The notes below the pieces were generated by a model. That model had not been told where the DNA came from. It searched no databases and saw only the letters and a list, made by a program, of their open reading frames with translations. The position numbers and the translations under genes are program-made. Positions 457 through 62,648 of a DNA stretch of 64,000 bases are shown one piece after another (the first letter of the stretch is position 1; every line of letters starts with the position of its first letter). This DNA is from Eledone cirrhosa. Lineage: Eukaryota. The stretch is taken from positions 48,794,001 through 48,858,000 of the forward strand of contig OZ024747.1 of assembly GCA_964016885.1 (NCBI GenBank), written 5' to 3'.

Positions 457-459
<3 letters not shown>

Positions 460-580
460 TGGTTCCACAACAGTTAGTTCACCATACCGGTATGATGAAC
501 TAACTGTACTGTTGTGGAACTACTTCTACCAAACTCGTCCCATGCTCTGCTACTACGGAAATAACCCTCCACTGTTCTAC

Positions 581-3439: not shown

Positions 3440-3740
3440 GCTATATACTAAATTATTTGAAGTTGAGGTTTGTTGAATCTTTTATAAACAAACAACTTTC
3501 ATTGTGTTTACTGCATCACAAGAGATTTTCTAATGAAGCAATGAAACGTAGACATTTGTGATAACATCTTACTAACCAGTATTCAAAGATAAACCAATTC
3601 ATGAAGATAAACCCGCTGAAATACTCTATAAAGAATTTCAAACTTGTTCTGCGATGGATGATGCATCCTTAAAAATTCAAAATGCTTTGAACAAGGGTTA
3701 ATTATCTGCAGCAGTTTATCTTATATTACATTGAATCGTC
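3440..3740 (+). pseudogene. Degraded hAT (Charlie/SCAND3-like) transposase N-terminal BED-finger remnant
   Basis: Translates LRFVESFINKQLSLCLLHHKRFSNEAMK..HL, resembling CLLC..FSNEAMKPSRL..HL; contains stops. Confidence 0.5.
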
Positions 3741-4057
3741 ATTTTTCTGTGTAGTTGTATGAGCCTAACGTTACAGATAATGTTTTATTGATTGCATATA
3801 TTTTTATGAAAGCAATCCATTAAACGAACAAATGGTATTTATTTTAAAGTTTGTCATATATACCAAACGATTATCAATGTTTGCCAGTATGCAATCCCAA
3901 TTTCACACACACAGAAAAAAGTAATATTACCTTGAACAAAAGTAATTCATTTTGCTGGTTTGGTTGGGTTTTACAGTTGAAGAAAAAAGTATCAAACGTT
4001 TCGTGTGTTCATTGTGCGGTTCTCACACATACGCACACCACACATACGCACGTATAC

Positions 4058-4093
<36 letters not shown>

Positions 4094-4096
<3 letters not shown>

Positions 4097-4290
4097 GTTA
4101 CACAACAGTTAGTTCACCGTACCGAGAACAATTGTTTCACCTTAGCGGATCCTCAGCTCGATTTACGAGCTAAGGTGAAACAATTGTTCTCGGTATGGTG
4201 AACTAACTGTTGTGTAACCACTTCTACCTAACTCGTCCCATGGACTGAGTGCTCTACCACTACGGATATTACCTTCCAGTGTTCTACTAC
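4094..4290 (+). mobile_element. Fold-back mini-insert, pLTR family A
   Basis: Inverted arms 4094-4146 and 4169-4222 plus 3' tail; TA flanks. Confidence 0.85.
4123..4160 (-). ncRNA. Minimal hammerhead
   Basis: Minus strand: cgag CTGAGGA tccgctaaggt GAAA caattg TT ctcg. Confidence 0.75.
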
Positions 4291-4355
4291 TATATATATA
4301 TATATATATAAAAATAATGATCCGAAGGCATGGTATAAATTTCCAATCATTTTAA

Positions 4356-4429
4356 TCACGGCACATGTTTCAATAAGAGATAGATCGATCGTGCGGCCAT
4401 GATCGACCATCACTGATCTCGTCAGGTGA
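4356..4429 (-). ncRNA. Degenerate hammerhead
   Basis: Minus strand: tcac CTGACGA ...long hairpin... GAAA catgtgcc gtga; cleavage-site U mutated. Confidence 0.5.
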
Positions 4430-4539
4430 AAATGAATTGTCTTCAAATCCTTGATATGAGGGAGAAAATTTAACGGTGTTCACTCACAAGAGTTTTCTCC
4501 CCCATATGACATTATCGAAAAAATGAGAACAATATCTTT

Positions 4540-4680
4540 TTTGTTAAGGAGTTTTATGAAGTATATAAAATATAAAATATATTACCGGTTTCGATGTAAT
4601 CCATCTTATCAAATATTAAATTAAATATTACAATTAACAAAGAATTAAAAATTAAAAATCAAGTGTTGTTGAAGAAGGCA

Positions 4681-4747
<67 letters not shown>

Positions 4748-5030
4748 TATGTCTTTTCACAGAGCAAACGTGTTTTTAGGAAGAGGAATTTTTCTGTATA
4801 TATGTGTGTGTATCTCAATTGTGTTAAAGAACTGGTCAAGAGTTCAGCTGGAGGTGGTGAAGAGGGAAAATGTAAACTAGGGACAATTTCTTTAGGGTAG
4901 AGATATATATATAGGATTGTCAAAGTTATAGGACTGTAAAAGAAATTCTGTTTTAGGAATATGTTTTGAGAGGGTATGAGTGTGTATATGTGAGTGTATT
5001 TATATATAGAAATATGTATGTGTGTGTGTA
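4540..5030 (-). mobile_element. PLE 3'UTR/pLTR fragment with internal (TAG)n; inverted relative of 12700-13195
   Basis: Collinear reverse-complement similarity to 12700-13195, including the hammerhead. Confidence 0.75.
4579..4616 (-). ncRNA. Minimal hammerhead, U3:A8 variant
   Basis: Minus strand: atat TTGATAA gatg gatta catc GAAA ccgg TA atat. Confidence 0.75.
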
Positions 5031-5031
5031 G

Positions 5032-5103
<72 letters not shown>

Positions 5104-5107
<4 letters not shown>

Positions 5108-5310
5108 AAGTATGACCCCGACGGCAGAGCTCAAGCCGTTTCGACGGCTATTTCTGGACTAAAGTGACTTTAGTCCAGAAATAGCCGCCGAAACGGCTTG
5201 AGCTCTACCGTCGGGGTCATACTTTCTCCTATTACCCACTCTACTACCCTAAGTATTGAGTGCTCTGGTGCGTTATCGTCCATCTGGTTCTTTACCACAA
5301 CTCCTTCGTT
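5104..5310 (+). mobile_element. Fold-back mini-element family B (GACCCC family), copy 1
   Basis: ~60-bp arms gagaaagtatgacccc...ggggtcatactttctc, ~80-bp tail ending ttcgtt, TA flanks. Confidence 0.85.
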
Positions 5311-5325
5311 ATATATATATATATA

Positions 5326-9407
<4,082 letters not shown>

Positions 9408-9432: not shown

Positions 9433-9466
<34 letters not shown>

Positions 9467-9657
9467 GGAGAAAGTATGACCCCGACGACAGAGCTCAAGC
9501 CGTTTCGACGGCTGTTTCAGTCCAGAAATAGCCGTCGAAACGGCTTGAGCTCTGCCGTCGGGGTCATACTTTCTCCTATTACCAACTCTACTACCCCAAG
9601 TATTGAGTACTCTGGTGCGTTATGGTCCATCTGGTTCCTTACCACGACTCCTTCGTT
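9467..9657 (+). mobile_element. Family B copy 3
   Basis: Hairpin plus tail as at 5104; TA flanks. Confidence 0.85.
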
Positions 9658-9689
9658 ATATATATCACAATTCATACATCTCAATTCTA

Positions 9690-16320: not shown

Positions 16321-16451
16321 AAATGTGTATATATATATATATATATATATAGAGATTTTGAGTTTATGTTGGTTGTATACCAACACCTCAGTATGCAGGC
16401 TGGAGCACTCGAGGAAGTGCGCAGGTTGGTTTGGTTACTCCGGAGTAGTGT

Positions 16452-16812
16452 AAAATAAAGTTAAATAAAAGTCAAATGATTAAAATTTAGCTTCGTTTAT
16501 TACTGCTATATATATTTCAGTGACAGCCATCTTTAGCTGTGACCTCTTCAGGCAGTTTGAATTAGTATGGTATATACAAGTACATATGTTGTTTAGGTGT
16601 ATAATATTATCAATACTCTGATATGCCCAGTTCCTTGCTGGGTTGTTGATTCACTGAGGAACTGGAGTCATATCATATGTACTTGTCTATACCATACTAA
16701 TTCAAACTGCCTGAAGAGGTCACAGCCAAAGATGGCTGTCACTGAAATATATATAGCAGTAATAAACGAAGCTAAACTTTAATCATTTGACTTTTATTTA
16801 ACTTTATTTTAT
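16452..16812. mobile_element. Fold-back insert: ~137-bp inverted arms, each with an intact hammerhead
   Basis: Arms 16452-16588 and 16675-16812. Confidence 0.85.
16706..16760 (+). ncRNA. Type I hammerhead (mirror 16502-16556 on -)
   Basis: actgc CTGAAGA ggtcacagccaaagatggctgtcact GAAA tatata TA gcagt. Confidence 0.85.
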
Positions 16813-16834
16813 GTATATATATATATATATATAT

Positions 16835-17423
16835 ATAAAATATTAAAAAAATAATGAATAAACAATGAAACAGTTCCTTATATTAAACAAAAAAAGTTCA
16901 TTATTTAACGATCGTTTCTAGGATATATATGTGTTAGAATTGGCATGCATATTCAACAGATCTATGTACAAAATTATACAAAATTATACAAACTATCAAA
17001 ATTAAATATACATACCAACACATATATATGCCGTCTTCAGAAATAATTTTCAGAAATATTTCAGAAATATTTCAGAAATATTATTTCTGAAGACGGCATA
17101 TATATGTGTTGGTATGTATATTTAATTTTGATAGTTTGTATAATTTTGTATAATTTTGTACATAGATCTGTTGAATATGCATGCCAATTCTAACACATAT
17201 ATATCCTAGAAACGATCGTTAAATAATGAACTTTTTTTGTTTAATATAAGGAACTGTTTCATTGTTTATTCATTATTTTTTTAATATTTTATCTTGACTC
17301 TGTATTCCGTTTATCTTTCACCGAAAGTGATTTTTCATTGCATCTCTTCTTTCCATGATATCCGGATTACATTGAGTTCTTCATACGGATTGGACACTAC
17401 CGTAAACTCTTGGTAGATTTATC

Positions 17424-17426
<3 letters not shown>
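16835..17426 (+). mobile_element. Fold-back element family C: ~213-bp arms plus 3' tail
   Basis: Arms 16835-17048 and 17080-17291 joined by three stutters of tttcagaaata; relatives at 31609 and 61794. Confidence 0.9.
17080..17227 (+). ncRNA. Hammerhead with ~115-nt stem II (mirror in the left arm)
   Basis: attattt CTGAAGA cggcatatatatgtgttgg...ctaacacatatatatccta GAAA cgatcg TT aaataat. Confidence 0.75.
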
Positions 17427-17477
<51 letters not shown>

Positions 17478-17580
17478 GATGTTTGAGAATACAAAAATTA
17501 ACACATGCATATCTATACATGCATACATGCATACATATATATATACATATATACTTATAAACATATATATATACACACTT

Positions 17581-17613
17581 TTCTCCTGATGAAGGGCTTA
17601 TGCCCGAAACGTC
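17581..17613 (+). ncRNA. Minimal hammerhead core; stem I partner lost
   Basis: CTGATGA agggc ttat gccc GAAA cgTC. Confidence 0.6.
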
Positions 17614-17693
17614 TCCCCCCCCCACTCTCAAAACCGTGAACCTAATAAACTCTTATTTGTACTGCTTCCCTGTTTTTGTTCCTGTCTAAGTTT

Positions 17694-17766
<73 letters not shown>

Positions 17767-19498: not shown

Positions 19499-19958
19499 TG
19501 TATTAATTTTTGTATTCTCAAATATCCAAATCCGACAAAATGTTTGCTCACTAGACTCTGCAAGTAACCTGACAGAAGTAGTGAAAGTTGCATAAATATG
19601 TTCATATCATTTTTCCCAATGCAATCACTGTTAACATTTTACATTTTACATGTTACATTTTACATTTTACATTTTACATTTTATATTTTACATTTTACAT
19701 TTCTCTTACATCCTAATGTAACATGGCTAAATTTCAAATTTTAAAAAGAGAAGAAAACTGCCAAATGAATAAGATACATTTCACTTCCCCCGCCACTACA
19801 ATAACGTCTATACACTCTCCTCACCACCACATTTACACTTTTACACTCACACAAGTCAATACACAACCTATCTAGACGAAAGTCACTGAGCTGCTACCTT
19901 CCTCCCTACTTTGTGTTGAATATGTATGTGTGTATATATATCTATCTATATATATATA

Positions 19959-20158
19959 GGAGTAAGTAAGACCCCGACGGCTGAGCTCAAGCCGTTTCGA
20001 CGGCTAATTCTGTACTAATTCTGTACAGAATTAGCCGTCGAAACGGCTTGAGCTCAGCCGTTGGGGTCTTACTTACTCCTATTACCCACTCTACTACCCT
20101 AAGTATTGAGTACTTTGGTGCGTTATGGTCCACCTGGTTCCTTACCACTTTTCCCTCG

Positions 20159-20160
<2 letters not shown>
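19959..20160 (+). mobile_element. Family B copy 4
   Basis: Hairpin with duplicated centre ctaattctgta x2. Confidence 0.85.
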
Positions 20161-20222
<62 letters not shown>

Positions 20223-21437: not shown

Positions 21438-21495
<58 letters not shown>

Positions 21496-22056
21496 TTGCG
21501 AGGTTTTTTATATGAAATCGTGTGTCGAAACAGATATTGTTATATTTGGGGAGGGTCATATTTGCGTAATATTGCCAGAATTAATAACAGAACACACTCA
21601 CTGTTTGGTTGGTTTTCGCTTCTCGCTGTCTTTTATATATATATATCTGCGATCTAACTTACTCGGTCCTCAATGTTGCCATTGACTGACCGGCGGTCAA
21701 AAATAATACAGATACAATATAGACACAAACACATATATATAGTTTACATAATTTACATAAATCTTTCGTTGCACATCTGCAACATCGTCAGTGGTGTTAT
21801 ATTCATTGTTCCTCCTGTTGTGTTGTATGTCTACGCCATTTTTTTTTTTTGTTCAGTCTGTCTATATATTTATTTATTTATTTGCTTGTTTGTTTATCTT
21901 ATTTTATTTTGTCTTCTTTGCGCATGCGTTTGCGTGTGTGTATAGTGTGATGTGTGACTAGTGTGTATAGTGTTGTGTCTGCTGGGTGACTAGTGTGTGT
22001 TTATGTGCTTGTGTATGTATTTATTTATCTTATTTTATTTAATTTTATTTACTTAT

Positions 22057-23286
22057 TTATACTTCTCTTAGGTCAGTGTTGTTTGTTTGGGTGTTGTTGT
22101 TGTTCCACTCATTCTTTCTGTTTAGCTTTGGTCTTCTAATTTCTATTTCACTGGCCTCTCTGATTTGCCTATCTGCTGGGTCATTCCTATGTTTAGATAT
22201 TATTCTAATTTCTATGTTGTCTATGTTACCGTCATGTTGTTGTCTAGCATGTTCGTATAGTACTGACCCGTTTTTTCGTCCTTTTAGTTCCGCCCAGTGT
22301 TGGTCTATCCTTTCACCTATGCTACGAGCTGTCTCACCTATGTATGTTGTTGTCATGTTTCTGCAAGTACCCTCTGTACATCTTATGCTATAGACTACGT
22401 TTCTAGTTTTACAGTTTATCCGGGGGTTCACCTTACAAATGATACATTTCCTATTGGTACAGTGGGTTTTCTTAAAAGGGTAGGTTTTGCTGATCAGGGA
22501 TTTTATGGTGGTTCCTGGCTTTTCTACCACCTTTATTTTTAAGTGGGTCTTTCTCAGGGCCTTTCTACACTGGTTAGCTAATTTCCCTCCAGGGGTGGCG
22601 TCCACAAACATGACACTCTGATATCTCTGGTTGTCGTACCATGATGTGGCCTTCCCTATCTTATGTGTAGCCCTATCTAAGCTATTCCATGATTTGCTCC
22701 TGTATAGTGGGCAAATTCCTTTCATGTCCAGTTCTATGAGGGTCTTATACTTTTCCATGGCTCCTTCGTATACTCTGACTCTGTCTCTTTGGTTGTAGCC
22801 AGAGAACTGCATGCGGTTGATGAAGTGTTGGATGTGTCCTTCCATTTCTGTTGGGTCGCACATGCTGGACACATTCTTCATCACTCGTACCAAATCTGCG
22901 ATCAGAATATTAAACTTAGCACTACTGGACATTGCTGAGTTTTTGAGTATCAGGTATTTGGAGGCCATGGGTTTAGCATAGTGTGAGTGGAGAATTTGGG
23001 CTCTCTCGTCTATAGTGTTAATCCAGAGTTCTGTGTCTAATACAGGTAGTCTATTGTTAGGGTGTTTGGAAGGGAAGTCTATAGTTACAGTTATACTCTG
23101 GTGTATGGAATTAGCTATCTGCTGGATGCTTTCCATCGTGCTACGTTCTAAATTAAACTTGTTAGTGCTCTCTAGTGGGGGTGTTCTTATAACTATATTG
23201 ATATCGTCTACATAACGAGAGTACATGATGAGGTCTATGGAGCTTTCATTAAGGAGATCTTTAAGTCTCCTTTCCCACCATACCAT
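22057..23286 (-). CDS. PLE RT (C-terminal half) plus GIY-YIG endonuclease; frame stays open upstream to the inversion junction
   Basis: EGAAIGVSIAGDVAKLFMVWW, YSRYVDD, LPVLDTELW, CTNRKCIIC, NVVYSIRC..YIGETARSIGER. Confidence 0.9.
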   Translation of the reverse strand: MVWWERRLKDLLNESSIDLIMYSRYVDDINIVIRTPPLESTNKFNLERSTMESIQQIANSIHQSITVTIDFPSKHPNNRLPVLDTELWINTIDERAQILHSHYAKPMASKYLILKNSAMSSSAKFNILIADLVRVMKNVSSMCDPTEMEGHIQHFINRMQFSGYNQRDRVRVYEGAMEKYKTLIELDMKGICPLYRSKSWNSLDRATHKIGKATSWYDNQRYQSVMFVDATPGGKLANQCRKALRKTHLKIKVVEKPGTTIKSLISKTYPFKKTHCTNRKCIICKVNPRINCKTRNVVYSIRCTEGTCRNMTTTYIGETARSIGERIDQHWAELKGRKNGSVLYEHARQQHDGNIDNIEIRIISKHRNDPADRQIREASEIEIRRPKLNRKNEWNNNNTQTNNTDLREV

Positions 23287-23372
23287 GAAAAGTTTGGCAA
23301 CATCACCAGCTATGCTGACGCCGATGGCTGCTCCCTCATTTTGGGTGTAGATTTTCTCACTTAAAAATAAAG

Positions 23373-23846
23373 GTGGTAGAAAAGCCAGGAACCACCATAA
23401 AATCCCTGATCAGCAAAACCTACCCTTTTAAGAAAACCCACTGTACCAATAGGAAATGTATCATTTGTAAGGTGAACCCCCGGATAAACTGTAAAACTAG
23501 AAACGTAGTCTATAGCATAAGATGTACAGAGGGTACTTGCAGAAACATGACAACAACATACATAGGTGAGACAGCTCGTAGCATAGGTGAAAGGATAGAC
23601 CAACACTGGGGGGAACTAAAAGGACGAAAAAACGGGTCAGTACTATACGAACATGCTAGACAACAACATGACGGTAACATAGACAACATAGAAATTAGAA
23701 TAATATCTAAACATAGGAATGACCCAGCAGATAGGCAAATCAGAGAGGCCAGTGAAATAGAAATTAGAAGACCAAAGCTAAACAGAAAGAATGAGTGGAA
23801 CAACAACAACACCCAAACAAACAACACTGACCTAAGAGAAGTATAA
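23373..23846 (+). pseudogene. Inverted duplicate of the GIY-YIG coding segment
   Basis: 157 aa matching the 22057 ORF C-terminus except HWAE>HWGE. Confidence 0.85.
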
Positions 23847-24361
23847 ATAAGTAAATAAAATTAAATAAAATAAGATAAATAAATACATACACAAGCACAT
23901 AAACACACACTAGTCACCCAGCAGACACAACACTATACACACTAGTCACACATCACACTATACACACACGCAAACGCATGCGCAAAGAAGACAAAATAAA
24001 ATAAGATAAACAAACAAGCAAATAAATAAATAAATATATAGACAGACTGAACAAAAAAAAAAAATGGCGTAGACATACAACACAACAGGAGGAACAATGA
24101 ATATAACACCACTGACGATGTTGCAGATGTGCAACGAAAGATTTATGTAAATTATGTAAACTATATATATGTGTTTGTGTCTATATTGTATCTGTATTAT
24201 TTTTGACCGCCGGTCAGTCAATGGCAACATTGAGGACCGAGTAAGTTAGATCGCAGATATATATATATAAAAGACAGCGAGAAGCGAAAACCAACCAAAC
24301 AGTGAGTGTGTTCTGTTATTAATTCTGGCAATATTACGCAAATATGACCCTCCCCAAATAT

Positions 24362-24398
<37 letters not shown>

Positions 24399-27280: not shown

Positions 27281-27752
27281 AGGGCCACACACTAACCCTG
27301 ACCCAACATAGATAACCACCTTTGCCTTGCCACACCGCCCCTCATCTCAGTGCATTTGTCTTATATAACATGTAACCCTTTGTAAGTTCAGATTTTGTAA
27401 ATATCATGTCGCATCCATCACCCCCACCACCGTCACCAACAGTCACATCGCCATACATCCCTCATCTCAGTACCATTGTGGTTTATCTGTCCTCTCTGTC
27501 AGGTTTTAACTTGTAAACCATCATAACATCCGATCCTGTAAATATAATGTCCAACATATCACCCCATCGGCACCATTCACATCGCTATACGTCCACCATC
27601 CCTCATTCACAACCTTGTTTTCCCCGTGTTCCCTATGCATATGAATACACACACGCTCTATGCAAATTAGTCTGCCCACTACTAATTTTCATAGAAAAAG
27701 CATATAACGATATGTGCTTTTACGATTCTCTAGAAAGGCCGGAAGATAGGTA

Positions 27753-27797
27753 AATATTGCTGATGAGTTGTAACAACAACGAAACTAGTTCAATATT
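27753..27797 (+). ncRNA. Intact minimal hammerhead of a nested pLTR fragment
   Basis: aatattg CTGATGA gttg taacaa caac GAAA ctag TT caatatt. Confidence 0.85.
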
Positions 27798-28018
27798 CCT
27801 TGTCTGGCTTTCTGGAGAATAGAGGAAAGGTGTTTCCTCAAAAACCAGTATGACTCTAAAAACCGGTTTGTCTGTGTGTTTACATACAGAATAGCTGGAC
27901 ACTCACAGTAAAGTGACCAGTGAAAAACTCGGTACATCTACATATGTATACGTGTGTGTATTCATATGCATACTAGTATTTCAGTATACATATGTGGATG
28001 TACATTTTTGACTTAATT

Positions 28019-28082
<64 letters not shown>

Positions 28083-28085
<3 letters not shown>

Positions 28086-28561
28086 GGAGGTGAGTTATAT
28101 TGTAGTACAATAAAGCAATGCAGATATCGGATAAGAAGCACTCTACAATTTGTAGGACTGGAGTATACATAATATATAAGAACAAAAGATGGTTAAAAGA
28201 GTTCCATGTATTTTATTATGCGCATTTCAAAAACAAATATCATCATGCAATAATATTTGTGTTTTCATCAGATAAAACAGGAAGATATGATATGAAGGTT
28301 AAAAAACACTTGTGGATAGTGCAGTTTTAAATCAACATATGTTGATTTAGTGCAGTTTTAAATCAACATATGTTGATTTAAAACTGCACTATCCACAAGT
28401 GCACTATCCACAACTGCACTATCCACAAGCGTTTTTTAACCTTCATATCATGTCTTCCTGTTTTATCTGATGAAAACACAAATATTATTGCATGATGATA
28501 TTTGTTTTTGAAATGCGCATAATAAAATACATGGAACTCTTTTAACCATCTTTTGTTCTTA

Positions 28562-28566
<5 letters not shown>
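28083..28566. mobile_element. Fold-back insert with ~180-bp arms, stuttered centre and two hammerheads
   Basis: HHR 28461-28527 (+): ttttat CTGATGA aaacacaaatat...atatttgttttt GAAA tgcgca TA ataaaa; mirror 28211-28277. Confidence 0.9.
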
Positions 28567-28601
<35 letters not shown>

Positions 28602-31608: not shown

Positions 31609-31614
<6 letters not shown>

Positions 31615-31908
31615 TATTAAAAAAATAATGAATAAACAAAGAAACAGTTCCTTATATTAAAAAAAATTTCATTATTTTACGATCGTTTCTAGGATATACA
31701 TGTGTTAGAGTTGGTATGCATATTCTATAGATCTATGTACAATATTTATACAAACTATCAGAGGGAATATACATACCTACACATATGTATGCTGTCTTCA
31801 GAAATAATGTAGTAGTTTTTGAATGCATCTTCTCTTTTCATGATATCCGGAATACATTAAGTTCTTCATACGGATTGGACACTACCGTAAACTTTTGGTA
31901 GATTTTTC

Positions 31909-31909
<1 letters not shown>
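31609..31909. mobile_element. Family C insert: inverted HHR arm (31670-31809, -) joined to a non-overlapping 3' tail
   Basis: Matches 16835-17048, then 17340-17426. Confidence 0.8.
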
Positions 31910-31991
<82 letters not shown>

Positions 31992-42941: not shown

Positions 42942-42945
<4 letters not shown>

Positions 42946-43607
42946 ATAATAATAAACGTGAAGACTAAATTCCAAAGAGGGCTCGATCAGGATAAATATA
43001 TATCAAATATATAAGAACCCTATAGCAAATATTTATTAAAATAATAGATTAAAGTTTAAGCAAAGAATCGCTGCTTTCACCCTAACGGGATCTTCTGAAA
43101 CTAAAAAATTCAATGTGTGAACGCAGAAGTAAATATTTCGGAAACCGAATGATTTTCGGCTTCGGACTTAAGAATAATGTAGATAAATTATTACTTTTTA
43201 TGTTTTTAATAACCTCTGTTATTTTCGCTTCACAAAGTACCAGTAATACACTGGGTAATTGCTGGCCTTGTGCCAAAAGTAGAAACAATTATTCTTAACT
43301 CCGAAACCGAGAAATGTTCGGTTTACTAAATAGCATATTAGTCTACAACTCCATTTATACCAATAACGTGGTTTTGTCTTTGCGTGTATTTGTTCTCATT
43401 GATCTACATAACGACGTATTATCTTCGTTTTGTTCCGTTCATTGCCAGGGAACGTCTTCACGAACGAAAGTATCCTCTTTCTGTTTTCCTTCGGTTGCAA
43501 CGGTTTTCGAAATATTTACTTCTGCGTTCACAGATTGAATTTTTTAGTTTCAGAAGATCCCGTTAAGGGTGAAAGCAGCGATTCTTTGCTTAAACTTTAA
43601 TCTGTTA

Positions 43608-43614
<7 letters not shown>
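42942..43614. mobile_element. Fold-back insert family E with CAGAAGA-core hammerheads (43053-43102 -, 43546-43596 +)
   Basis: Arms 43034-43147 and 43501-43614; SINE 3' fragment at 43236-43290. Confidence 0.8.
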
Positions 43615-43680
<66 letters not shown>

Positions 43681-61793: not shown

Positions 61794-62321
61794 GTAGATA
61801 AATCTACCAAGAGTTTACGGTAGTGTCCAATCCGTATGAAGAACTCAATGTATTCCGGATATCATGGAAAGAAGAGATGTAATGAAAATCCAATTTCGGT
61901 GAAAGATAAACGGTATACAGAGTCAAGATAAAATATTAAACAAATAATGAACAAACAATTCCTTATATTAAACAAAAAAAGTTCACTATTTAACGATCGT
62001 TTCTAGGGCATATATGTGTTATAATTGGTATGCATATTTAACAGATCTATGTACAAAATTATACAAAATTATACAAATTATCAAGATTAAATATACATAC
62101 CTAACTCATATATACGCCGTCTTCAGAAATAATGAAGACGGCGTATATATGAGTTAGGTATGTATATTTAATCTTGATAATTTGTATAATTTTGTATAAT
62201 TTTGTACATAGATCTGTTAAATATGCATACCAATTATAACACATATATGCCCTAGAAACGATCGTTAAATAGTGAACTTTTTTTGTTTAATATAAGGAAT
62301 TGTTTGTTCATTATTTGTTTA

Positions 62322-62330
<9 letters not shown>
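61794..62330 (-). mobile_element. Family C fold-back centred at HHR stem I/core
   Basis: ...cttcagaaataa|tgaagacg...; HHR 61984-62132 (-). Confidence 0.85.
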
Positions 62331-62372
<42 letters not shown>

Positions 62373-62376
<4 letters not shown>

Positions 62377-62567
62377 GAGGAGTTGTGGTAAGGAACCTGA
62401 TGGACCATAACGCACCAGAGTACTCAATACTTAGACTTAGGGTAGTAGAGTGGGTAATAGGAGAAAGTATGACCCCGACGGCAGAGCCCAAGTCATTTCG
62501 ACGGCTATTTCAGTCCAGAAATAGCCGTCGAAACGGCTTGAGCTCTGCCGTCTGGGTCATACTTTCT

Positions 62568-62570
<3 letters not shown>
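62373..62570 (-). mobile_element. Family B copy 5
   Basis: Reverse orientation, same arm end-point. Confidence 0.85.

Positions 62571-62648
<78 letters not shown>

What the first reader, a model, noticed from the sequence alone, without database searches (positions are those of the whole stretch)
16835..17426. Arm ends are non-random: outer ends at internal AT microhomologies, inner ends at the hammerhead
Family C short arms end at the same aatattttat site in three copies (16835, 31609, 62330), and their inner ends fall at HHR stem I or the core. Family E short arms end near aatatttattaa. The 1-kb arm at 24370 ends at aacaatat and the arm at 28566 at ttatatat. The copy at 457 folds ~3 nt from the predicted cleavage site. 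This suggests TA-primed internal initiation and ribozyme-defined stops.
Basis: partly seen in the sequence, partly recalled or inferred. Interest (0 to 1): 0.75.

Follow-up and report, generated by a model that had tools for sequence, protein, structure and literature searches.

The report
Inverted Penelope-like retroelement end pairs
The palindromes are head-to-head pairs of the hammerhead-bearing end repeats of Penelope-like retrotransposons inserted in TA microsatellites; their fixed outer ends are the elements' two usual 3' ends and their fixed inner end is likely the start of the transcript, an architecture already described for this class.

Summary
The arms at 16835-17050 and 17077-17292 are 100% complementary. 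The same outer end recurs in all three window copies and in 13 of 15 arms of a structure-blind genome sample.

The elements are Penelope-like retroelements (PLEs) inserted in (TA)n. "Family C" is the end repeat (pLTR) of a young 6.7-kb PLE.

- **Outer ends.** They are the element's two regular 3' termini: S1 lies 72 nt 3' of the predicted hammerhead cut and S2 lies 136 nt further. Ordinary long copies also end at S1 (13 of 30) or run on towards S2 (17 of 30).
- **Pairing rule.** Inverted pairs carry S1 at one end and S2 at the other in 10 of 11 sampled short pairs and in all 9 window pairs. This is the known one-sided "tail".
- **Inner ends.** They cluster 140 nt upstream of the cut, at the 5' edge of the hammerhead. 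No 5' end of 45 lies within 5 nt of the cut. Untemplated G and reiterated first bases there suggest a capped RNA 5' end.

"Internal initiation" is therefore supported and agrees with published in-vitro work. "Ribozyme-defined stops" is not supported. The arms are made anew at each insertion, most likely by priming on both cut target strands. This is a new member of a known kind, of modest interest.

The parts
16812..16834 (.). (TA)n flank, left part of the target microsatellite
   Evidence: sequence; (TA)n flanks most sampled family C copies on both sides
16835..17050 (-). Family C inverted pLTR copy (reverse complement of q1..q216). Its outer end is the 3' terminus S1.
   Evidence: S1 is also the end of 13 of 30 long copies
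17051..17076 (.). 26-nt joint between the arms. With the adjoining bases it reads as about three reiterations of the antisense of the first ~11 element bases.
   Evidence: similar reiterations in L070 and L084
17077..17427 (+). Family C direct pLTR copy, q1..q351, running through S1 (17292) to S2 (...atctaca, 17427). The stretch 17293-17427 is the one-sided 'tail' of about 136 nt.
17080..17227 (+). Hammerhead-like type I motif: stem I 5' strand 17080-17086; core CUGAAGA 17087-17093; long helix II 17094-17208; GAAAC 17209-17213; palindromic helix III ACGAUCGU; predicted cut after 17220; stem I 3' strand 17221-17227.
   Evidence: read from the sequence; long helix II in the fold, z -5.66; no Rfam match
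17428..17475 (.). (TA)n flank, right part of the target
61794..62132 (-). Family C copy 2, direct pLTR with tail (q4..S2) on the minus strand
62133..62330 (+). Family C copy 2, inverted partner q13..S1, followed by (TA)n
31609..31808 (-). Family C copy 3, inverted segment q4..S1
31809..31925 (+). Family C copy 3, direct segment about q250..S2. This is an inversion without duplication, as in twin priming.
   Evidence: same type in L073, L074, L096
16353..16811 (.). Family B inverted pair: tail 16353-16450; arms 16451-16588(-) and 16674-16811(+); hammerheads at 16551-16507(-) and 16711-16755(+)
21493..24369 (.). Inverted pair of a PLE with ORF. The minus copy 21534-23357 is 1824 nt and carries a 41-nt tail at 21493-21533. 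The plus copy 23358-24369 is 1012 nt. Both are 5'-truncated inside the RT/GIY-YIG ORF 22057-23409(-).
28083..28566 (.). Family D inverted pair: tail 28083-28163; arms 28164-28572 (92% self-complementary); hammerheads cut at 28217(-) and 28521(+)
42944..43614 (.). Family E inverted pair: arms 42992-43147 and 43501-43656 by BLAST, with a tail of about 95 nt at the left end
53179..53452 (.). Family E short inverted pair, with a tail of about 100 nt at the right end. The inner ends lie at the first base of stem I (AGTTT).
457..567 (.). Family A short inverted pair folding 3-5 nt after the predicted hammerhead cut, with the tail at the right end
4094..4292 (.). Family A inverted pair. The left copy starts in stem I of the hammerhead and the right copy starts in helix II. 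Tail 4223-4292.

Best explanation
These palindromes are head-to-head pairs of 5'-truncated copies of the hammerhead-bearing end repeat (pLTR) of Penelope-like retrotransposons, inserted in (TA)n microsatellites and likely made anew at each insertion by reverse transcription primed from both cut target strands.

**Shown.**
- The outer ends are the element's two regular 3' termini, S1 and S2.
- An inverted pair has S1 at one end and S2 at the other.
- The arms copy one another's private variants.
- Palindromic copies do not form a lineage of their own.

**Inferred.**
- One target strand primes at S1 and the other at S2, probably on the same RNA.
- Both cDNAs run to the RNA's 5' end, and each then serves as template for the other strand.
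- The inner hot spot is the capped 5' end of a transcript that starts at the 5' edge of the hammerhead. Short palindromes would then arise when reverse transcription starts at the S1/S2 pair nearest that 5' end.
- Hammerhead cleavage plays no visible part in setting the ends.
For: **PLE identity.**
- The ORFs carry RT motifs (FDIDNYYSSI, YRDD).
- The C-terminal domain keeps Y, YxG, R, H, E, N and three Cys invariant in 29 of 29 aligned homologues.
- The top Foldseek rows for that domain are GIY-YIG nucleases: T4 EndoII, UvrC N-terminal domain, I-TevI.
- The nearest Atlas clusters carry GIY-YIG and RVT_1.
- Copies form tandems of 6.7 kb and inverted pairs 3.5-11 kb apart.
- My scanner finds 9 hammerhead sites in the window, against a mean of 0.05 in 40 shuffles.

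**S1 and S2 are true 3' termini.**
- 13 of 30 long copies end at q216 and 17 of 30 run on past q353.
- Among 8 single copies of a second sample, four end at each site.

**Pairing rule.**
- 10 of 11 short pairs are S1/S2. There are no S1/S1 or S2/S2 pairs.
- 5 of 6 long pairs are S1/S2.
- All 9 window pairs have exactly one tail.
- 6 of 6 determinable family E pairs follow the rule.

**Made at each insertion.**
- Arm and body of one copy differ by 0.4 per 198 columns on average, and 15 of 20 pairs are identical. Different copies differ by 4.86.
- 63 departures from the majority are symmetric and 8 are asymmetric. One of the symmetric ones is an 8-nt deletion present in both arms.
- On a tree of 49 copies the palindromic state needs at least 6 changes. 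Eight palindromic bodies are identical to 12 long copies.

**Against a simple hairpin.**
- Three of 15 sampled arms (L073, L074, L096) and window copy 3 are inversions without duplication. L171 of family E is of the same kind.
- The 1-kb pair has unequal truncations, 1012 against 1824 nt.

**RNA 5' end at q4.**
- Of 19 short pairs in a blind list, 14 have the spacing expected for a fold near q4.
- 6 of 22 palindromic copies carry an untemplated G just 5' of q4, where the genome has C.
- The first ~11 bases are reiterated at the joint in the window copy, L070 and L084.
- An initiator-like YYANWYY word lies at or within 3 nt of the hot spot in families C, E and A (read).

**Literature.**
- PMC11167929 (main text read): both strands are cut and extended, there are two internal start sites, and the tail is the stretch between them.
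- PMC3846280 and PMC8557442 (passages read): an inverted pLTR beside pLTR-ORF-pLTR, a one-sided tail, AT/(TA)n targets, and the TSS in the pLTR.
Against: - Pfam found no family for either ORF, even at E up to 10.
- No Foldseek match reached E 0.001.
- No phylogeny places the RT among PLEs.
- Three of 15 sampled pairs (L076, L078, L082) fold at one and the same arbitrary position in both copies. Two independent cDNAs would not give this. It needs a shared truncated RNA or self-templating.
- Symmetric private variants fit self-copying as well as a shared RNA.
- An untemplated G can be added by reverse transcriptases at uncapped ends too.
- No RNA data could be brought to bear, so the transcript start is unproven.
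- The published enzyme saw no difference in start site between the two strands. The strict S1/S2 pairing is therefore not predicted by that work.
- The tail here is 41-136 nt, against the published 30-40 nt.
Confidence: 0.6

Rival explanations
1. Self-priming (snap-back): a single cDNA primed at S2 reaches its stopping point, folds back on itself and copies itself. The palindrome is then a hairpin. This was proposed for Penelope elements in PMC3846280.
For: - Five of the 14 palindromic copies of the first sample fold with no loop, exactly at q4.
- Both copies share the fold position at arbitrary sites in L076, L078 and L082.
- Private variants are shared by both arms.
Against: - It gives no reason for the returning strand to stop at S1, yet 13 of 15 arms end there. 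S1 is also an ordinary 3' end of single and long copies.
- Inverted segments whose sequence is absent from the direct copy cannot be templated by it: L073, L074, L096 and window 31609-31925.
- The 1-kb pair would need an 812-nt loop.
Confidence: 0.2
2. Descent: a palindromic non-autonomous master element (MITE-like or SINE-like) was copied as a whole, so the shared ends are identity by descent.
For: There are thousands of near-identical copies with the same ends.
Against: - Both arms mirror subfamily-diagnostic and private variants, 63 symmetric against 8 asymmetric.
- Joints differ between copies.
- Palindromic copies are scattered over the tree and are often identical to long copies.
- The same end rule holds for long pairs and for at least five other families.
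Confidence: 0.05
3. Ribozyme-defined ends: self-cleavage by the hammerhead creates the RNA 5' end at which cDNA synthesis stops.
For: - The window copy at 457-567 folds 3-5 nt after the predicted cut.
- L115 has one end at the cut.
Against: - None of 45 family C ends lies within 5 nt of the cut.
- Only 1 of 43 family A ends lies at the cut.
- The hot spots lie at the 5' edge of the motif, which cleavage does not create.
- In vitro, ribozyme mutants did not change insertion, and no reads ended at the cut (PMC11167929, main text read).
Confidence: 0.05
4. Artefact: the perfect palindromes are chimeric long reads or assembly errors.
For: 100% identical arms with tiny spacers are what such artefacts look like.
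Against: - The same structure recurs at many loci with different flanks and different joints.
- Older copies have diverged arms, 92% at 28164-28572.
- A contig of a run of another organism (X6) runs across a loop-free joint (table 7).
Confidence: 0.02

Closest known systems
Canonical EN+ Penelope-like elements (Penelope/Poseidon, Neptune, Nematis), as described in PMC3846280 and PMC8557442
   Same: [quoted passage not shown]
- pLTRs formed by partial tandems.
- An inverted 5'-truncated copy or inverted pLTR next to the direct one.
- A 'tail' at one end only.
- A hammerhead in the pLTR.
- AT-rich or (TA)n targets.
- A palindrome at the inverted joint.
- TATA- and Inr-like words in the pLTR.
   Different: - Tails are 41-136 nt instead of 30-40 nt.
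- Solo inverted pLTR pairs without an ORF are here a very abundant insertion class, with thousands of copies.
- The family C hammerhead has a helix II of about 115 nt.
- The family C 3' UTR is about 3.7 kb of degenerate microsatellite.
- Clade membership of the RT was not tested.
PAc (Poseidon of Anolis carolinensis) in-vitro system, PMC11167929
   Same: - The hammerhead lies just upstream of or at the ORF start.
- Reverse transcription starts internally at two sites downstream of the ribozyme cut.
- The tail is the stretch between the two sites.
- AT-rich DNA is cut, and both strands are cut and extended.
- Ribozyme cleavage is not needed.
   Different: - In vitro both strands used both start sites alike. 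The genomic pairs here are almost always S1 on one side and S2 on the other.
- The start sites here are 136 nt apart.
[quoted passage not shown]
L1 twin priming (5' inversions of LINE-1 insertions; recalled, no paper read here)
   Same: The second target strand primes internally on the RNA. This gives an inverted 5' segment joined to a direct 3' segment without duplication, as in window 31609-31925 and in L073, L074 and L096.
   Different: - Most pairs here duplicate the same stretch in both orientations.
- The internal priming site is fixed (S1), not variable.
- The enzyme is a GIY-YIG/RT protein, not an APE/RT protein.
Animal non-LTR retrozymes (bioRxiv 10.64898/2026.07.22.740005, passages read)
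   Same: They are non-autonomous, hammerhead-bearing sequences derived from PLE terminal repeats.
   Different: Retrozymes are head-to-tail tandems thought to pass through circular RNA. The copies here are dispersed head-to-head pairs or single pLTRs in (TA)n.

Membership tests
Penelope-like elements (EN+) | C-terminal GIY-YIG endonuclease domain with the Y, YxG, R, H, E, N set and Cys motifs | tested here: met
   - Invariant C102, C108, C114, Y121, Y134, G136, R145, H149, E204 and N217 in 29 of 29 aligned sequences.
- Model pLDDT 81.
- The best Foldseek rows are GIY-YIG nucleases, but at E 0.2-2.
- Pfam itself gave no hit.
Penelope-like elements (EN+) | Reverse transcriptase of the PLE/TERT-related clade | tested here: inconclusive
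   - RT motifs A, B, C and E are read by eye in P0122.
- Homologues and Atlas clusters carry HTH_animal, DUF8422 and RVT_1.
- There is no Pfam hit, no PDB sequence hit, and no phylogeny was made.
Penelope-like elements (EN+) | pLTRs from partial tandems, plus an adjacent inverted 5'-truncated copy | tested here: met
   Tandems are spaced 6.7 kb apart and inverted pairs 3.5-11 kb apart. There are nine inverted pairs in the window.
Penelope-like elements (EN+) | [quoted passage not shown] | tested here: met
   10 of 11 short pairs are S1/S2 and 9 of 9 window pairs have one tail. Tail length is 41-136 nt rather than 30-40 nt.
Penelope-like elements (EN+) | Hammerhead motif within the pLTR | tested here: met
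   My scanner finds 9 sites against 0.05 expected. The family C motif was read by eye. All lie 38-86 nt upstream of a 3' terminus, except in the 1-kb-arm family, whose motif lies about 250 nt upstream.
Penelope-like elements (EN+) | AT-rich or microsatellite target preference | tested here: met
   27 of 30 right ends, and most left ends, abut (TA)n.
Hammerhead ribozyme, type I (Rfam clan CL00010) | Match to a curated covariance model at gathering score | tested here: not met
   There were no matches at gathering score. The best was HH9 at 27742-27813 with 37.7 bits against 52. Nothing was found for family C, whose helix II is about 115 nt.
Hammerhead ribozyme, type I (Rfam clan CL00010) | Conserved core CUGANGA...GAAA, helices I-III, and H at the cut site | tested here: met
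   The criteria are met at the nine scanner sites. Family C has the core but an irregular base of helix II (C.A, G.U), and the minimum-energy fold pairs part of the core otherwise. Family E has CAGAAGA, that is U4 replaced by A.
Hammerhead ribozyme, type I (Rfam clan CL00010) | Self-cleavage | not testable with these tools
   This needs in-vitro transcription or RNA end mapping.
Foldback/MITE-type DNA transposon | Equal terminal inverted repeats moved as one unit by a transposase, with target site duplication | tested here: not met
   The arms are unequal (one-sided tail), are regenerated at each insertion, and are continuous with long RT-encoding copies. A duplication cannot be read within (TA)n.

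The most novel reading that the evidence does not exclude
**One RNA, two primers.** Each inverted pair is made from a single capped PLE transcript by a two-headed RT-endonuclease. One cut target strand starts at S1 and the other at S2. The one-sided 'tail' is then simply the footprint between the two start sites.
- When the S2 cDNA fails to pass the S1 complex, the result is a twin-priming-type inversion.
- When it does pass, the result is a perfect palindrome, whose two cDNAs template each other's second strand.
- The hammerhead is the very first structure of the capped RNA.
- Solo pLTR palindromes arise when the enzyme engages the start-site pair nearest the 5' end.
Probability: 0.35. Interest if true: 0.6.

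Novelty: new member of a known kind. Interest (0 to 1): 0.35.

Why it matters
How PLEs build their odd tandem and inverted insertions is still an open mechanistic question, named as such in PMC8557442. The first in-vitro data appeared only in 2024.

This genome holds thousands of very young copies that record the outcome of many insertions. Four features of that record could guide and test in-vitro models:
- the near-strict S1/S2 pairing;
- the inversions without duplication;
- the sharp 5'-end hot spot with untemplated G;
- the absence of ends at the ribozyme cut.

For genome annotation, the finding means that perfect palindromes in TA microsatellites of this genome should be masked as PLE pLTR pairs. 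They should not be read as microRNA-like hairpins: Rfam's weak miRNA matches fall on them.

Tried and rejected
- **Rfam.** At gathering score it gave nothing. At E up to 10 it gave mostly weak miRNA-like matches on TA repeats and palindromes, plus one sub-threshold HH9 match. Nothing was found for the family C motif.
- **Protein identification.** Pfam gave no family for either ORF. A PDB sequence search gave only chance rows.
- **Genome search with the tail.** A DNA query of 148 nt found nothing, not even its own locus, presumably because its words are too common. I replaced it with exact-word searches.
- **RNA evidence for the 5' end.** No RNA holder was listed. Laying four runs gave only short contigs of the repeat, which cannot show starts. 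No conclusion on expression is drawn.
- **Earlier notes of this scan.** None were found.
- **Structure.** The fold assignment therefore rests on weak Foldseek rows and on invariant residues.
- **Sampling bias.** The first genome sample was biased towards copies holding the whole query. Its '14 of 14 folds at q4' is therefore not used as a frequency.
- **Correction.** I first placed S2 at q398 because BLAST ran on into (TA)n. The correct position is q351-353.
- **Rejected readings.** MITE or foldback transposon, assembly artefact, and microRNA hairpins.

Full report
**1. What is at the coordinates**

The stretch 16835-17427 is a perfect palindrome with one long side. Arms 16835-17050 and 17077-17292 are 216 nt and 100% complementary, with 26 nt between them. 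The right arm runs on to ...atctaca at 17427. (TA)n lies on both sides.

I number the element from q1 = 17077. Two more copies of the same family lie at 61794-62330 and 31609-31925. Their arms end at the same AATATTTTAT word. The window holds nine such inverted pairs from at least six families.

**2. What the element is**

Genome searches show that q1-q351 is the end of a long, very young repeat. Many copies are 100% identical over 413 nt. They stand in tandems 6.7 kb apart and in head-to-head pairs 3.5-11 kb apart.

One tandem unit (L063) reads as follows:
- the hammerhead-like motif, q4-q151;
- S1 at q216, then S2 at q351;
- an ATG about 150 nt further on, opening an ORF of 830 codons from stop to stop;
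- about 3.7 kb of degenerate microsatellite;
- the next hammerhead.

The ORF has RT motifs. Its C-terminal domain keeps Y, YxG, R, H, E, N and three Cys invariant in 29 of 29 aligned sequences. The domain's model has pLDDT 81. The best PDB rows for it are the GIY-YIG nucleases T4 EndoII, UvrC N-terminal domain and I-TevI, though only at E 0.2-2.

Pfam gave no hit for either ORF. The Atlas places the protein beside clusters that carry GIY-YIG, RVT_1, HTH_animal and DUF8422. The best named relative is a hypothetical protein of Argonauta hians.

A scanner of my own for minimal type I hammerheads finds nine sites in the window, against a mean of 0.05 in 40 dinucleotide shuffles. Rfam's best match is below its threshold, HH9 at 37.7 bits against 52.

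Taken together these are the defining traits of endonuclease-bearing Penelope-like elements (PLEs), as described in PMC3846280 and PMC8557442 (passages read):
- RT followed by a C-terminal GIY-YIG domain;
- a hammerhead in the end repeat;
- tandem and inverted arrangement;
- (TA)n targets.

**3. The outer ends**

In 30 long copies chosen without regard to their 3' end, 13 end exactly at q216 next to (TA)n and 17 run on past q353. S1 and S2 are therefore the element's two regular 3' termini. Both lie inside the continuous tandem unit, so both are internal to the transcript.

A structure-blind sample took the first 30 of 4655 exact hits of a 28-mer in the tail. In it, 15 copies have an inverted partner, and 13 of the 15 partners end at q214-216. 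The other two end at A/T-only words at q172 and q194. 27 of the 30 right ends read ...ATCTACATA followed by (TA)n.

A second blind sample used a 26-mer upstream of S1. It gave 5444 hits, and 21 places were read. Its 11 short pairs comprise ten S1/S2, one S2/q172, no S1/S1 and no S2/S2. Eight of its single copies are four S1 and four S2. These two samples overlap, because both start at the beginning of contig 1.

Five of six long pairs are also S1/S2. All nine window pairs have a tail at exactly one end, and so do six of six determinable family E pairs. [quoted passage not shown] Here it is 41-136 nt long instead of 30-40 nt.

PMC11167929 (main text read) showed in vitro that a PLE protein cuts and extends both target strands. 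It starts reverse transcription at two internal sites downstream of the hammerhead, and the tail is the stretch between them.

The overlap with the (TA)n target is 3 nt at family C S1 (TAT) and S2 (ATA). Richer TA runs inside the element are hardly used. Family A and S2 of the 1-kb-arm family have 0-1 nt of overlap. TA pairing may help initiation, but it does not choose the site.

**4. The inner ends**

In the blind sample, body 5' ends fall into three groups:
- 9 are long;
- 10 lie at q-9..q6;
- 11 are scattered: 24, 30, 58, 106, 121, 134, 156, 231, 258, 291 and 293.

Arm inner ends lie at q-7..q10 in 11 of 15. Binomial p is 2e-8 and 3e-13. These tests count only ends within q-100..q300. Among the first 100 listed hits of the 26-mer, 14 of 19 short head-to-head pairs have the spacing expected for a fold near q4, 332-375 against 348.

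The predicted cut lies after q144 (window 17220). None of the 45 ends is within 5 nt of it.

Family A has the hammerhead CCGAG-CUGAGGA...GAAAC-AAUU-GUU|CUCGG, and its 22-mer has 7893 hits. There, 21 of 43 ends lie within -5..+12 of the first base of stem I, and only one lies at the cut. BLAST ends are approximate.

Family E has 35,562 hits of a 25-mer. Most of its short ends lie at -3..+9 of stem I. The window copy at 457 folds 3-5 nt after the cut, so it is an exception.

The hot spot behaves like a physical end of the template:
- 6 of 22 palindromic copies have a G just 5' of q4 where the genome has C.
- The first ~11 bases are reiterated at the joint in the window copy, L070 and L084.
- An initiator-like word YYANWYY lies at or within 3 nt of the hot spot in three families: TCATTAT, TTAGTTT and CCATTCC.

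That the pLTR holds the transcription start is known for Penelope (cited in PMC8557442). My reading is inferred, not shown. The RNA starts at the 5' edge of the hammerhead. Reverse transcription that begins at the S1/S2 pair nearest this end yields the short copies.

The 1-kb arms (1012 against 1824 nt) end inside the ORF. Long pairs therefore have ordinary, variable 5' truncations.

**5. Born at each insertion, not inherited**

Arm and body of one copy differ by 0.4 per 198 columns on average, and 15 of 20 pairs are identical. Different copies differ by 4.86. There are 63 symmetric and 8 asymmetric departures from the majority, including an 8-nt deletion present in both arms of one copy.

Both subfamilies contain palindromic copies whose arms mirror the diagnostic sites. 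On a tree of 49 copies the palindromic state needs at least six changes. No bootstrap tree makes it one clade. Eight palindromic bodies are identical to twelve long copies. The joints also differ: no loop, loops of 3-26 nt, extra G, or reiterations.

**6. Mechanism**

The best fit is priming from both cut strands, one at S1 and the other at S2. Both cDNAs run to the RNA's 5' end, and each then serves as template for the other strand.

Three of 15 sampled partners (L073, L074, L096) and window 31609-31925 are inversions without duplication. The S1 copy reaches q4, while the S2 copy stops between S2 and S1. L171 of family E has the same form. A hairpin cannot make these. Twin priming on a single RNA can.

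The strict S1/S2 rule, the shared private variants and the three pairs that fold at one arbitrary position (L076, L078, L082) all suggest a single shared RNA. They also keep the published self-priming idea alive as a rival.

**7. Verdict**

- The architecture is already described for PLEs.
- What is added is a large, young natural data set. It contributes a near-strict pairing rule, a sharp 5' hot spot at the hammerhead's edge with cap-like signs, and no trace of ribozyme cleavage in the insertion record.

Noticed in passing
L063:790-3279 (family C ORF, protein P0122, about residues 520-620): A long Asn/Thr/Lys-rich low-complexity insert lies between the RT and the endonuclease domains. It resembles the N-rich inserts reported in Adineta vaga Penelope ORFs (PMC3846280).
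   Followed up: no
window 43540-43600 and 53280-53340; L157-L186: The family E hammerhead-like motif reads CAGAAGA in place of CUGANGA (U4 replaced by A), yet keeps stems I-III. Its 25-mer occurs 35,562 times in the genome, so it is a very large family with a possibly crippled ribozyme core.
   Followed up: partly
window 17576-17699: This is a separate fragment holding CTGATGA-AGGGCTTATGCCC-GAAAC-GTC. It has no stem I partner and appears 5'-truncated at the core. It ends at (TA)n 86 nt after the predicted cut. It is not part of family C in other loci: only 1 other locus matched q500-577.
   Followed up: partly
window 62375-62572, 5032-5561, 9448-9665, 19920-20207: Another (TA)n-flanked repeat family has an internal palindrome of about 116-133 nt holding GCCGTCGAAACGGC. 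No CUGANGA core was seen, and its nature was not worked out.
   Followed up: no
window 55000-58600: A long block of degenerate short tandem repeats gives dozens of 70-78% inverted matches and long spurious ORFs.
   Followed up: no
window 17003-17124, 62087-62171, 28290-28448, 4095-4220: Rfam's weak microRNA-precursor matches (mir-2513, mir-5014, MIR529, MIR6217; all far below gathering score) fall on the centres of the PLE palindromes. Hairpin-based miRNA prediction in this genome would pick them up.
   Followed up: partly
runs X5 and X6 on window 16900-17400: Contigs of runs labelled as two other organisms hold family C sequence at 95% identity or more, including a loop-free inverted joint. 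The family is therefore shared with relatives.
   Followed up: no
L031:470-9926: A giant inverted pair of the family C element. ORF copies at 3669-5291(-) and 5533-7497(+) meet head to head, with several kb of microsatellite-like 3' UTR mirrored on both sides.
   Followed up: partly
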